NCBI GenBank assembly: GCA_964106645.2
Contig: OZ067042.1
Reading direction: 5' to 3' (one strand)
Source: Podarcis pityusensis
Taxonomy: Eukaryota
Length of the DNA: 64,000 nt
The position numbers were made by a program. Below are positions 18,001-34,636 of this stretch, piece after piece (the stretch's first letter is position 1; each line of letters opens with the position of its first letter).

Positions 18001-21000
18001 AGTGTACAGAGATACTCATGTATAAAAAGAGTGTGGGCGTCTTTGGAAAAAAATACAAATATGCATTTAGATTCATTTACTTTGAAAAAAATGGATATTA
18101 GAGAACACAAAAACAAAACTTTTCCACAGACCCTCACACATACAAACTTAATAATTATATTGTTTTATTATTTCCTAACCCTCCAGAGCTGATGCTGAGG
18201 AGACAGATAAGGAAGAGAAAGCTCCTTTATGTTCATGGGAGTCCATTGCGTCCATTGCATTACAGCCTATAAATGTTGCTGGTGTTGGTGGTGAAGTTTT
18301 GTTGTGGAGGATAGCTAGGAGAAAATGAAAAGATTTTGATAAAAAGTTATTTCTTTTCCGTTTAATTGCATCACTGGAATTTGGGTGTTGTTGTTCTTCT
18401 CCCTCCAGTGTTCTTGGCTGGCAGATGTCTGTCTGGTTCAGTGTGCAAGAGGAAACAGAAAGAACAGCGCAAACTGCATCATCTTTGAAATAAACAAGTT
18501 TCTGATTGGGCTGGAGCTTGTGCAGGAGAAGCAGCTGCACATCGAGGCCAGCATCTTAAAGCCTGAGGACGACACTAACTGCTCTGTGTCCTCAATAGAA
18601 GAAGATTTTCTTACAGCTTCCGAACACTTTGAAGATGAGAGTGAGGCCGATGAATATAAAAACGGTAAAATCTAGCTGGCTGAAAGTGAACCTGTCACAA
18701 TCTGTGCAGTCAAATACATAAGGGCTTGTGCTCATGTAAATAGCACTCGGTGTTAATTGGTGCATACATTTAATTGCCGCTTGAAAGCAATGAAATTAGA
18801 GGAAGATCCAAAATCCCTCATGCCGTTAAATACCATTGCTCGCGAGATGGAAAATGTGGTCATTATACATGGTGATTGCACACTTCCTCTTCATGCTACT
18901 TTGGCACGTCCACTTTTCAGGACACGACGGCTGGTTTTCTAAAGGCTAACGTGTTGCTTTTCATTTTCCAGGTCAGGAAAAACTGAATGTCACCGAGTCC
19001 TCAGCAGAGTTCAAAAAGCACGGAGGGAAAGGACTTGAAAGCTTACAGTGCAAAAATCCCAGGTTGCCATTTGCTCTGGAAGCAAACTGTATTAACAAAG
19101 ACAGCGCAGCTCCTGCTAGGATTTCAAGCTCGTCTGATGAGGACTTGAATGGTGAGGGCGAAGACAGCGTTTTGCGAACTGTGGACAAAGCCAATAAGCA
19201 CTGGAAATCTGGTATAGCTGGGAAATCTAAGCCATCCTCTAATACTGATGATCTGGAAGACTCTTCCAGAGGTGATACAGACAATTCGGATGTGTTGGAA
19301 GACGTGTTGTTGGCCACAGCAACCAAGGAGGAAATTATTTCTCTGGATGATGCAGCAGAAGAACAAGACATTTGTTTAGACCCCTTGGATTGTAGAGATG
19401 AAAGAACAGATAATCCTCCCATGCAAAATGAACAGGCCACAGCAGGTCAGTTCGCTACAAATTTGGCAGAGTCGGTCCTGCAAGACGCGTTCATCAGGTT
19501 GTCTCAGTCTACTTTTACCAAAGAGGCTGCCATCAGCATCTCTGCTGGTAGCTCCTTAACTCCAGCTGCATATGCCGCACAGGATGCGATGGCTTCGCGG
19601 CCATGGAACGAACTCCCCAAAATTGTCATAGTTCAGAGTCCAGACGGCTCTGAAAACACATCTGAATGGCCTGGATCTAGCTTACCAAACTTGTGTCCTT
19701 GGTCTGACGTTGAGCGTCCCCGTGAAGCTGCAGACTGGTTGCAAGACAACAGTGGAGGCACTCAAAGTGCCTTGGAGGTGGCTTTGGCCTGTGCCGCTAC
19801 AGTCCTTGGCACCATATCGAGCCCACATGCCGCAGAGAAGCTCAAAAGAGAACAGGAAGCCGCGGACTCTCAAACAATTTCTAATGAAGTGTTGGAGGAA
19901 AACTCTCCCCAAGGCATCAGTAACAGCCCGCCTGTGGATTACTCATTCCCATCTGCCCTGTGTGGCATGACTCAAGTAGCAAGTGCTGTTGCAGTTTGTG
20001 GTCTTGGTGACAAGAAAGATGATAAGTATCCTGCAGCCTCCGGTGGACTCTTGTCTGCCGCAGAGACATCAGCAGCCATCACTCTTCACTGTAGCATAGC
20101 TGTGGGGAGCAGCATGGAGAATCTGAACAATAGCGTTGCACAAGCATTATTCAAAGAGGCATCCTTAGTGTTAGCCAAGCCTGAAATGTACAGAAATCTA
20201 GGCGACTTTATGGAATCTGTAAATGGGAAAATTGTCCAGGCTGTGACAAAGCCCTCAGTTCCCCATTTGGAGGAAGTGATTGTTGATGAACTTGCCCAGA
20301 ACTTGTCCAACGTTATTCTGAGACACTCAGTGGAAGAGGTCAGGAAGAAGCAGCTAAACACACGACCTGAAAGCAATGTAGACCTCAGTACCCAAGATGT
20401 TTTTATTGCAACTGCAAATAAGCTGCTTTTTGATGTGCTGTACTTCACTTGTAAGAAAATGAGCGATATCACACAGCTCACTGAGTCTTTAAGTACTTTT
20501 GCTGAAGATAATCTTAGCTGGCAGGTAATGGAGAGCCAACCAAGGGAGTCTACAAATGATCTATTACAACCATCTCCAGACGACTCTGATAATAAGCCTC
20601 CTAGTACTTTTTGTGGCACTAGCCCTAACATTGGTGTTGTACCCACAACAAAAGACGTCAAAGAGGAAGTTGTGCTGGAGACCCGGGAATCGGCCGCACC
20701 TCGTGCAGCTTCACCACCTAGGGTCAATGCCCATAGTTCACCTTCTGGGAAAACGTCTCCCAAAAAAAGGTATTTGAAAAGAACTGCAAGAGAGTGCTAC
20801 AAATCCATACATCCCAGTAGCAGCAATCATACAAAGAAAGAACTCCGGTCGTTTACCGGCAGAGAAGACACAACGCTAGCCAATGAATGCAGACATGGCA
20901 TTCAGGAACGTCCATCTTCCAACACCGCACCAAGTACAGAAAGTCATGAAAAGCATGTGTGTGGTGACACATGGCACAATGAAGCCCAACTCAGCCTCTC

Positions 21001-33000: not shown

Positions 33001-34636
33001 AATGTGTCCTTGGGCCAGTCACTGCCTCTCAGCCTAACCTACCTCTTAGGTTGTTGTGGGGATTAAATAAGGAGGCAGAGAACCACGTATGTTACCTCGA
33101 GCTCCTTGGAGAAAAAGATGAGATATAAATGCAATTAATTGATTTTTTAAAAAATCTTGTGTTTGAGGCTGGAGACAATAAGAGGCGACAAATTATAAAA
33201 GACACAGCAAGACATCAAACATTTAAAAATTTCCCTTCAGATGTCTTCCAAAAGTCATATAGTTGTTTATCTCCTTGACATCTGATGGGAAGGTGTTCCA
33301 CAGGGCGGGCACTACTACCAAGAAAGCCCTTTGCCTGGTTCCCTGTAACTTCACTTCCTGCAGTGATGGATCCACTAGAAGGCCCTTGGAGCTGGACCTC
33401 AGTGTCCAGGCTAAACGATGGGGGTGAAGGCACCCCTTCAGGTATGCAGGGTCGAGGCCATTTAGCACTTTAAAGGCCTAAAGGCCTCGACATTATCTCT
33501 GGCTACACTGTGATGAGTCTTAGGGTTTTATATAATATGGCAACCACTTGATGACACAGTATCAAGTGATAATTAGCACATATATGAAGCAGCCATCATG
33601 ACTCAAATACCACCAAATGTTCACATCCCCTGACATCACTCTCAGGACAGCCTTCTGCCACTCATCAAGTGATGAGACATCAAGTGATGTAACCAGACTT
33701 TACATAGCATGTTTTGCTCTGAGCTGAAATGAAATCTTCATTTTTGCCTTACCAAACCCTCAGCTTAACACTTGATTCTTTCTCTGTCAGTTCATAGCAC
33801 CAGTAGATGTGTAACTGTTGTGTACTGTTTGACTAAATACGTCCCCATCTTTTGTGTTGCTGGTAACAAATTGCTGAGTCAGGCAAGAACTGTGTGCCCT
33901 TGTTCTGAGAAGCAGAAAAGCAGCCGCTCTGTCTGCCGCTTTGCTTAACAATGTCTTCAAGTGCATGCTGGTGCAGACTGGCATTAATACTTAAATTTTT
34001 GCATCGTCAGCAATGGCAACAGCAGTACCACTAGCAGTCTTGGCATTATGGACCTGGACATTTATCAGGAAAACATGCCATCTTCTCATACAATTAAGTA
34101 AGTAGCTGCTAAGGTGACCTCTGATCTTGGGAAGCACTGCTCCATTTCAGCTGAAAACCATTCACATCATCCAGAATGTGCCAAGCGGCTCCCGTGCCTC
34201 CATTATTCATCCAGCTGCTCTCCTTTCTTGCTGCCGCTTTAACTCCCATCAGCGATGGTTACAATACAAAGTTAGTTATTTCCATTAAGTGGTGATCAAT
34301 TATTTCCATAAAGTGGTGTCCACATTTTCCAGTTGCCCACCACATTCACACTTAATTTCATAGTGTGCTCCAAAGTGCAGATTAGCTGCACTTTGCCCTC
34401 ATTCTCTAAATATACTGTTGCAAACGCAAGGTGTGAATTTCCCCCCTGAAATGTTAGAAGCCAGCAGTTTCAGTTACAGTTTCAGTAATTGCTATCTCTG
34501 GCAAGCAGCCATCTCTTTCTGATATAAACAACTGCCTACAGCAAACACAGGCCCTGGTTGAGCAGCACATTTTTGTGTTTATTTCGAAGGTTTGTACCCC
34601 ATCTTTCATTCAAATGATTTACAACAGGTTGTAATA

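What the first reader, a model, noticed from the sequence alone, without database searches (positions are those of the whole stretch)
19538..33754. Apparently identical 6.25-kb duplication of SPHKAP exon 7(part)-exon 8 across a 200-N gap
Seen: 19538..25790 recurs at 27502..33754 with a constant 7964 offset, identical translations and an identical microsatellite; copy 1 stops exactly at the gap. Removing 25791..33754 restores a normal single-copy gene. Inference: most likely an uncollapsed contig overlap (false duplication) that will corrupt SPHKAP annotation. If real, it is a very recent intragenic duplication in which symmetric exon 8 (183 nt, phase 2-2) could be included twice in frame (+61 aa).
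[Added by the scan's program, not by the reader: the finding's places include an assembly gap (unread letters, written N; its length is only estimated) at 25791 to 25990. Whether the letters on both sides are continuous or in frame is not known: test that first.]
Basis: partly seen in the sequence, partly recalled or inferred. Interest (0 to 1): 0.65.

Follow-up and report, generated by a model that had tools for sequence, protein, structure and literature searches.

The report
False duplication at an assembly gap
A 6.25-kb piece of a lizard's SPHKAP gene appears twice, letter for letter, on either side of an assembly gap; this is most likely two overlapping contigs that were never merged, not a real gene duplication.

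Summary
Window 19538..25790 and 27502..33754 are identical (6253 bp, 0 mismatches, offset 7964). Copy 1 ends on the last base before the only N run (25791..25990). The gene is SPHKAP of a lacertid lizard, closest to Podarcis, so not human. The copy holds the 3' 3197 nt of the big exon (18972..22734) and the whole 183-nt phase 2-2 exon (24027..24209).

A 1511-bp stretch (25991..27501) lies between. It matches nothing else in the window except a MITE family, and it ends in a truncated MITE joined directly to mid-exon sequence.

This anatomy fits a "homotype false duplication at a contig boundary" (Rhie 2021; Ko 2022):
- A branch in the assembly graph sits at 19537|19538.
- The left contig keeps an overlap past that branch.
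- A scaffolder then joined the two contigs with 200 N.

My weights are artefact about 0.8, a real breakpoint on the other haplotype about 0.08, and a real very recent duplication about 0.08. Reads were not available, so the decisive depth and spanning-read test is still open. Interest is low.

The parts
18972..22734 (+).
   Evidence: Open frame 18950..22738. AG acceptor and GTAAGT donor read. 97.8% identical without gaps over 1254 aa to Podarcis muralis and P. raffonei SPHKAP.
19538..25790 (+). Copy 1 of the 6253-bp duplicate. Holds the 3' 3197 nt of the big exon, the intron, the 183-nt exon and 1581 bp of the next intron. Ends at the contig end.
   Evidence: 100% identical to 27502..33754. 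Base 25790 is the last before the N run.
24027..24209 (+).
   Evidence: tblastn (aa 1488-1548 of P. muralis X1). Splice sites read.
25791..25990 (.). Assembly gap of 200 N, inside an intron. Not filled.
   Evidence: the only N run in the window.
25991..27501 (+). 1511-bp 'tip' at the start of the right contig. Unrelated to the gene's local sequence. Contains a (TTAT)n array at 26564..26590, which I take for part of a longer compound repeat, and what I take from recall for a SINE-like fragment. No Pfam match in its four ORFs.
   Evidence: No match elsewhere in the window except MITE family members at 91% or less. The longest shared exact word is 23 nt, inside the MITE.
27403..27501 (+). Truncated copy of a palindromic MITE-like repeat. 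It has about the first 99 nt of an element of about 140-155 nt, and the outer right arm is missing. Its cut end is the junction with mid-exon sequence.
   Evidence: Complete copies lie at 1287..1422, about 14847..14956, and 55668..55822. The alignment to the 55.7-kb copy stops at 27502.
27502..33754 (+). Copy 2 of the duplicate. Continues without a break into the rest of the gene.
27502..30698 (+). Partial second copy of the big exon. It has no acceptor site. It starts on a codon boundary at aa 423 of P. muralis X1. The open frame runs back to 27481, with in-frame ATGs at 27487 and 27490 inside the MITE remnant.
31991..32173 (+). Second copy of the 183-nt exon, with its own acceptor and donor
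   Evidence: the identity shown carries the splice sites over from copy 1.
34011..34097 (+). 87-nt exon used in the long Podarcis isoforms, 257 bp past the end of copy 2. Present once.
35735..39613 (+). Remaining 3' coding exons: 35735..35787, 35877..about 36062, and about 39472..39613 with a TAA stop
   Evidence: The exon at 35877 gives AKAP_110 at E 2.1e-5, 23.5 bits, against a cut-off of 25.

Best explanation
This is a false 'homotype' duplication at a contig boundary. The genome most likely holds one copy.

How it arose (inferred):
- The assembly graph had a branch at 19537|19538. Two different sequences lead into the same downstream sequence.
- One is the true upstream part of the big SPHKAP exon (the left contig). 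The other is a 1511-bp stretch ending in a cut MITE (the start of the right contig).
- The right contig was built as tip plus downstream sequence.
- The left contig kept the stretch past the branch point, 6253 bp, and stopped there.
- Because of the 1511-bp overhang the two contigs are not a clean end-to-end overlap, so they were never merged.
- A scaffolder that knows order but not overlap then placed them side by side with a conventional 200-N gap.
- The tip itself is most likely an unsupported or chimeric contig end.

What is shown: the identity, the edges, the position of the gap, the foreign tip and the intact ancestral arrangement in the left contig.

What is inferred: the graph branch, the contig history and the single-copy truth.
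For: 1. 6253 of 6253 bases are identical, in direct orientation, and they form the only long repeat in 64 kb.
2. Copy 1 ends on the last base before the only gap.
3. The duplicate starts exactly where the two contigs begin to agree, with 0 bp of further identity. Its length is in the range of a long read. Rhie et al. [quoted passage not shown] They arise where a branch not chosen as the primary path keeps a small overlap dovetailing to it, and scaffolding then follows.
4. Ko et al. [quoted passage not shown] They did not find these properties for true duplications.
5. Zero differences argue against two haplotypes. At the 0.1-1.1% heterozygosity quoted for VGP genomes, 6 to 69 differences are expected. 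P(0) is about 0.002 at 0.1% (my arithmetic).
6. The left contig is the ancestral arrangement. The big exon aligns without gaps over 1254 aa across the boundary to 14 of 15 listed lacertid SPHKAP proteins; the 15th is a shorter gene model.
7. The four proteins put through tblastn (P0002, P0133, P0128, P0129) have contiguous residue numbering that leaves no room for a second 61-aa exon. The longest of the 15 listed cluster members is 1704 aa.
8. The sequence left of copy 2 is not the end of any unit seen downstream. It has no match in 33755..64000 except a 91% MITE relative. A simple tandem duplication inside the window is therefore excluded.
Against: - No reads, depth, k-mer counts or second assembly could be consulted. 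The defining tests for a false duplication (half or low depth, single-copy spanning reads) were not run.
- The overlap is not a clean one. 1511 bp of foreign sequence precede copy 2, and the junction 27501|27502 looks like a breakpoint (a MITE cut about 70% of the way through, with 1 bp of possible microhomology). A breakpoint could be biological.
- Copy 1 running up to the gap is also what a real repeat would show if the assembler broke inside it.
- The copies hold almost no error-prone sequence, so perfect identity is less telling than it looks.
- The read length of this assembly is unknown.
Confidence: 0.8

Rival explanations
1. There is a real structural breakpoint on the other haplotype. 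One chromosome of the sequenced animal carries a rearrangement or a large insertion with a breakpoint inside the big exon at 19537|19538, with the tip as its edge. The assembler mixed the two haplotypes, taking the left contig from the intact allele and the right contig from the rearranged one. The duplication in the scaffold is still false, but the junction 27501|27502 is real and marks a heterozygous disrupted SPHKAP allele.
For: - The junction is a clean breakpoint within a MITE rather than at a transposon end.
- The tip is ordinary host-type sequence, with repeats of the same MITE family found elsewhere in the window.
- It is not a fold-back of nearby sequence.
Against: - Zero differences in 6253 bp between what would be two haplotypes. 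That is unlikely unless the region is homozygous by descent.
- The right contig reaches only 1511 bp into the supposed variant. A short tip is what a single aberrant read gives.
- No independent support is available.
Confidence: 0.08
2. This is a real, very recent duplication of the 3' part of SPHKAP. Either it is a tandem unit that starts at 19538 and ends beyond the window (more than 44 kb, with the gap hiding the rest of copy 1), or it is a shorter unit joined through at least 1.5 kb of filler sequence. The second 183-nt exon could then be spliced in twice, adding 61 residues in frame upstream of the C-terminal AKAP_110 region.
For: - The copies are in direct orientation, and the gap length is only nominal.
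- The 183-nt exon is symmetric (phase 2-2) and keeps both splice sites in copy 2.
- The Pfam AKAP_110 match lies at aa 1611-1687 of P. muralis X1, downstream of the exon at aa 1488-1548. A doubled exon would therefore not interrupt it.
- Assemblers do break inside perfect repeats.
Against: - No difference in 6253 bp puts a 95% upper bound on divergence of about 4.8e-4 per site (my arithmetic). The event would have to be extremely young.
- The sequence left of copy 2 does not recur anywhere in the 30 kb after copy 2.
- A graph of a perfect tandem repeat should break at the unit edges, not 6253 bp inside the unit.
- None of the 15 listed lacertid SPHKAP proteins (of 21 in the cluster) is longer than 1704 aa.
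- Per Ko 2022, a gap between the copies is a property of false duplications, not of true ones.
Confidence: 0.08
3. This is a heterotype false duplication. The two copies are the maternal and paternal alleles, both kept in one pseudo-haplotype.
For: It is the commonest class of false duplication in older assemblies (Ko 2022), and there is a gap between the copies.
Against: - Zero differences in 6253 bp, against 6-69 expected at 0.1-1.1% heterozygosity.
- It does not explain the foreign tip.
Confidence: 0.03

Closest known systems
Homotype false duplication at a contig boundary (Rhie et al. 2021, Extended Data Fig. 5b type 1; the class that purge_dups targets)
   Same: - Identical sequence occurs twice on one scaffold with a gap between.
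- One copy abuts a contig end.
- The duplicate starts at a branch point.
- Its size is in the range of a long read.
   Different: - Copy 2 is not flush with the gap. A 1511-bp foreign tip precedes it.
- The depth and k-mer criteria could not be tested.
False gene gains and false exon gains catalogued by Ko et al. 2022 (for example ZBTB11/ZBTB11-like and NPNT/NPNT-like in zebra finch)
   Same: - Part of a gene is duplicated next to itself across an assembly gap.
- The expected outcome is a split or '-like' gene model. Here an open frame of 1073 codons with in-frame ATGs starts in the MITE remnant.
   Different: - Most of those cases were heterotype, with haplotype differences. Here the copies are identical.
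- I saw only text passages of that paper, not its figures or supplements.
True intragenic tandem duplication with exon doubling
   Same: Direct orientation, a symmetric exon, and intact splice sites in the second copy.
   Different: - The junction sequence does not recur downstream.
- There is no divergence at all.
- A gap sits between the copies.
- The first copy is cut by a contig end.

Membership tests
False duplication in an assembly (criteria of Ko 2022 and Rhie 2021) | An assembly gap, or read-unsupported sequence, lies between the two copies on the same scaffold | tested here: met
   The N run 25791..25990 lies between copy 1 and copy 2. The criterion is quoted.
False duplication in an assembly (criteria of Ko 2022 and Rhie 2021) | The duplicate sits at a contig boundary | tested here: met
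   Copy 1 ends at 25790, the last base of the left contig. Copy 2 starts 1511 bp inside the right contig, so this is met on one side only.
False duplication in an assembly (criteria of Ko 2022 and Rhie 2021) | Homotype: no haplotype-specific differences between the copies | tested here: met
   0 mismatches in 6253 bp.
False duplication in an assembly (criteria of Ko 2022 and Rhie 2021) | Half or lower read depth on each copy, and a k-mer copy number in the assembly above that in the reads | not testable with these tools
   No reads or k-mer database for this genome are on hand.
False duplication in an assembly (criteria of Ko 2022 and Rhie 2021) | Duplicate length about one read length | not testable with these tools
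   6253 bp is plausible for a long read, but the read length of this assembly is unknown.
SPHKAP orthologue (A-kinase anchor protein SPHKAP/SKIP) | Best matches are SPHKAP, collinear over the large exon | tested here: met
   top hit is Zootoca vivipara SPHKAP X1, 96% identity and 99% coverage; 95.3-97.8% identity without gaps over 1254 aa to 14 of 15 listed lacertid proteins.
SPHKAP orthologue (A-kinase anchor protein SPHKAP/SKIP) | C-terminal AKAP_110 region (PF05716) | tested here: inconclusive
   One exon searched alone (35876..36061) gives E 2.1e-5 and 23.5 bits, just under the 25-bit cut-off. The full P. muralis protein passes with 31.9 bits. The window's exons were not joined.
True tandem duplication | The sequence left of the second copy equals the end of the duplicated unit, and so recurs after the second copy | tested here: not met
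   25991..27501 has no match in 33755..64000 except a 91% MITE relative. This stays open only for a unit longer than 44 kb.
True tandem duplication | Reads span copy 1, the junction and copy 2 | not testable with these tools
   No reads are available.

The most novel reading that the evidence does not exclude
The junction 27501|27502 is biological. Either the animal carries a very young duplication of the 3' part of SPHKAP that can include the 183-nt exon twice (+61 aa, in frame), or it carries a heterozygous rearrangement that breaks the big coding exon of this PKA type I anchor gene at a MITE.
Probability: 0.15. Interest if true: 0.3.

Novelty: not a real feature. Interest (0 to 1): 0.07.

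Why it matters
The main value is assembly and annotation quality control.

If left in place, the extra 7964 bases would do three things:
- Inflate the intron after the 183-nt exon from 3561 to 11525 bp.
- Offer a gene predictor a second 183-nt exon.
- Offer a 1073-codon open frame with its own ATG.

A false exon gain, a false isoform or a false 'SPHKAP-like' partial gene could then enter comparative sets. The fix is simple: drop 25791..33754.

If the junction turned out to be real, it would be a private or very young structural variant in a gene for a PKA-RI anchor of heart and beta cells (review PMC9322728, passages seen). That would be of modest interest.

Tried and rejected
**Readings tested and rejected**
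- Simple tandem duplication within the window: rejected, because the tip does not recur downstream.
- Transposon insertion as the cause of the junction: rejected. The MITE is cut inside its right half, while three other copies in the window have both arms.
- Fold-back or palindromic chimeric read: rejected. There is no inverted match of the tip to copy 2 or to anything nearby.
- Retrocopy: rejected, because copy 2 keeps the intron.
- Homology-driven join through the 15-of-18 match between exon 19654..19671 and the MITE arm: rejected as the cause, because the junction lies 116 bp away from it.

**Checks that found nothing**
- Coding content of the tip: 0 Pfam families in its 4 ORFs.
- Rfam at gathering thresholds: 0 matches in the window.
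- ARAGORN: 0 tRNA genes.
- Pfam on the 5 ORFs of 110 aa or more in 39700..64000: 0 families.
- Literature: 4 papers hold both 'SPHKAP' and 'lizard'. Of the 3 listed, none is about a duplication by title. In the broader search, none of the 12 listed papers contains 'SPHKAP'.

**Not done**
- DNA comparison with other lacertid genomes or the other haplotype.
- The 1.84-billion-representative protein search, structure prediction and complex prediction. None could separate artefact from real duplication.
- Joining the window's exons into a spliced model. Exons were searched one at a time.
- Filling the N run.
- Supplementary figures of Ko 2022 that illustrate read-depth gaps.
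Full report
**1. The observation**

Window 19538..25790 and 27502..33754 are the same 6253 bases with no mismatch, at a constant offset of 7964. A self-BLAST of the whole window shows nothing comparable. The next best pair is 270-273 bp at 86%, an interspersed repeat. 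The window has one N run, 25791..25990, and copy 1 ends on the base before it. The left edges are sharp, with no further identical base to the left of 19538/27502. An exact 6.25-kb repeat cannot be chance.

The 'identical microsatellite' amounts to (CA)7 at 22832..22845 and (CTTTC)4 at 23998..24017. There is no homopolymer of 8 or more, and Tandem Repeats Finder lists nothing inside the copies. Identity at these sites therefore says little.

**2. Whose gene it is**

The open frame 18950..22738 was translated as one exon. It finds SPHKAP of reptiles and birds: 674 proteins with E ≤ 0.001 among 7998 scored candidates, 120 listed. The top hit is Zootoca vivipara SPHKAP X1 at 96% identity and 99% coverage.

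That 90% cluster has 21 members. The 15 listed come from Zootoca vivipara, Lacerta agilis, Podarcis muralis, P. raffonei and P. lilfordi, and are 1450-1704 aa long. Identities to the window's big exon are:
- P. muralis and P. raffonei: 97.8% over all 1254 aa, without gaps.
- Zootoca: 95.9%.
- Lacerta agilis: 95.3%.
- P. lilfordi: 99.4% over 951 aa. This model omits part of the exon.

I therefore take the contig for a lacertid lizard close to Podarcis, not for human. I did not try to name the assembly.

SPHKAP (SKIP) is described as an AKAP that prefers PKA-RI (review PMC9322728, passages seen).

**3. Gene map (+ strand)**

| Feature | Coordinates | Notes |
|---|---|---|
| Small upstream exons | about 17055..17114, 17755..17904, 18406..18669 | |
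| Big exon | 18972..22734 | 3763 nt, phase 1 in, phase 2 out |
| Gap | 25791..25990 | 200 N |
| Partial second big exon | 27502..30698 | No acceptor; starts at aa 423 of P. muralis X1 |
| Second 183-nt exon | 31991..32173 | Own acceptor and donor |
| 87-nt exon | about 34011..34097 | Used in the long Podarcis isoforms |
| 3' exons | 35735..35787, 35877..about 36062, about 39472..39613 | TAA stop |

I did not verify the numbering.

**4. The gap test**

The gap lies in an intron, 1581 bp after the donor of the 183-nt exon, so no reading frame crosses it. The two sides are not continuous parts of one copy. The 1511 bp to the right of the gap (25991..27501) are 26% identical, position by position, to what follows copy 2. 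That is random level. They have no match elsewhere in the window except members of a MITE family: best 99 bp at 90.9%, longest shared exact word 23 nt. I did not fill the N run.

**5.

Copy 2 does not start at the gap. The right contig opens with 1511 bp of unrelated sequence. That stretch holds a (TTAT)n array, which I read as part of a longer compound repeat, and what I recognise from memory as a squamate SINE-like fragment. It gives no Pfam match in its four ORFs.

Its last 99 bases (27403..27501) are a copy of a palindromic MITE-like element. Complete copies with both arms sit at 1287..1422, about 14847..14956 and 55668..55822. The search motif gave 7 matches with up to 3 mismatches, against 0 expected. 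The three other loci matched on both strands; this locus matched on one strand only.

The alignment to the 55.7-kb copy stops at 27502, so the element lacks its outer right arm. The junction 27501|27502 is therefore a breakpoint inside a repeat, joined to the middle of a coding exon with at most 1 bp of shared sequence. It is not the end of a transposon insertion. It is also not a fold-back, since no inverted match exists.

**6. How it most likely arose**

Rhie et al. 2021 (PMC8081667, passages seen) describe homotype false duplications. [quoted passage not shown] In overlap-layout-consensus assemblers, a branch that is not chosen as the primary path keeps a small overlap dovetailing to that path, and scaffolding then places both copies in line.

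Ko et al. 2022 (PMC9516828, passages seen) list a gap between the duplicated pair as a primary mark of false duplications. They add that some pairs are connected by read-unsupported sequence from gap filling or other errors, and that true duplications lacked these properties.

The anatomy here fits that description point for point:
- Two sequences lead into the same downstream sequence at 19537|19538: the true exon upstream, and the tip.
- The duplicate begins exactly at that branch.
- It ends exactly at the end of the left contig.
- A 200-N gap follows.

The left contig carries the ancestral arrangement, because lacertid proteins align across the boundary without a gap. The foreign tip explains why the two contigs could not be merged as a clean overlap.

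The graph branch and the contig history are my inference. The sequence facts are shown.

**7. Weighing the rivals**

- *Two haplotypes kept side by side.* This would be expected to differ. At the 0.1-1.1% heterozygosity quoted for VGP genomes, 6-69 differences are expected in 6253 bp. P(0) is about 0.002 even at 0.1% (my arithmetic).
- *A real tandem duplication inside the window.* This is excluded, because the sequence left of copy 2 should recur after copy 2 and does not.
- *A real duplication in another form.* What remains is a unit longer than 44 kb reaching past the window, or a junction with at least 1.5 kb of filler. Either would have to be extremely young: the 95% upper bound on divergence is about 4.8e-4 per site (my arithmetic). 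If real, the second 183-nt exon could be included in frame (+61 aa), upstream of the AKAP_110 match at aa 1611-1687 of P. muralis X1.
- *A real heterozygous breakpoint in the exon, mixed into the scaffold.* This cannot be excluded from sequence alone.

My weights: artefact with an unsupported tip 0.8; real breakpoint on the other haplotype 0.08; real duplication 0.08; plain heterotype 0.03.

**8. Evidence against my reading**

- No reads, depth, k-mers or second assembly were available.
- The overlap is not clean.
- A repeat that is real also makes assemblers break inside it.
- The copies are nearly free of error-prone sequence, so perfect identity is weaker evidence than it seems.
- The read length is unknown.
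- 6 of the 21 cluster members were not listed. I cannot say that no annotated lacertid protein carries the doubled exon.

**9. Consequences and novelty**

Dropping 25791..33754 leaves each exon once and shortens the intron after the 183-nt exon from 11525 to 3561 bp (coordinates).

If the sequence is left in, a predictor can call a doubled exon or a separate partial gene. The frame of copy 2 runs back to 27481 and has in-frame ATGs at 27487 and 27490 inside the MITE remnant.

This is a known kind of assembly error, not a biological feature, so interest is low.

No paper in the library links SPHKAP with a duplication in lizards. 4 papers hold both 'SPHKAP' and 'lizard'. Of the 3 listed, none is about a duplication by title.

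Noticed in passing
window 1287..1422, about 14847..14956, 27403..27501 (truncated), 55668..55822: A palindromic MITE-like repeat of about 140-155 bp with long inverted arms. There are four copies in 64 kb, 79-91% alike. The motif search gave 7 matches against 0 expected. I did not establish its family name. From memory it resembles a common squamate element.
   Followed up: partly
window 19654..19671 (and its duplicate 27618..27635): The coding exon contains an 18-mer that matches the MITE's missing outer right arm at 15 of 18 positions, 116 bp from the junction. It is the only non-MITE match of that quality in the window. By my arithmetic about 0.04 such matches are expected per window, so it is probably chance, but it is oddly close to the breakpoint.
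   Followed up: partly
window 27481..30702: The open frame of the partial second exon runs back into the MITE remnant and picks up two in-frame ATGs (27487, 27490). This gives a 1073-codon ORF that a gene predictor could call as a separate 'SPHKAP-like' gene.
   Followed up: yes
window about 21722..21829 (residues 918-953 of the frame translated from 18950): A sub-threshold Pfam match to SmAKAP (E 9.4e-5, 23.8 bits, cut-off 27). The same match appears at aa 1144-1179 of P. muralis SPHKAP. It may mark a PKA-RI-binding helix (recalled, not tested). It lies inside the duplicated part.
   Followed up: no
window about 34011..34097: An 87-nt, phase 2-2 exon lies 257 bp past the end of copy 2. It matches the long Podarcis isoforms but is absent from the Zootoca X1 alignment, so it is probably an alternative exon.
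   Followed up: partly
protein P0129 (Podarcis lilfordi model) against window 18971..22732: The public P. lilfordi gene model covers only about 1000 of the 1254 residues of the big exon. It seems to splice out an internal part of the exon. This is probably an annotation difference, not a biological one.
   Followed up: no
window 26540..26730: The tip holds a (TTAT)n array at 26564..26590, which one search shows as part of a longer compound simple repeat. Next to it is a stretch that I recognise from memory as the tail of a squamate SINE. Only a weak 37-bp relative exists elsewhere in the window, at about 16180..16216.
   Followed up: no
window 39700..64000: Downstream of the SPHKAP stop codon nothing was recognised. 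There are 0 Pfam families in the 5 ORFs of 110 aa or more. The whole-window scans found 0 Rfam matches and 0 tRNA genes.
   Followed up: partly
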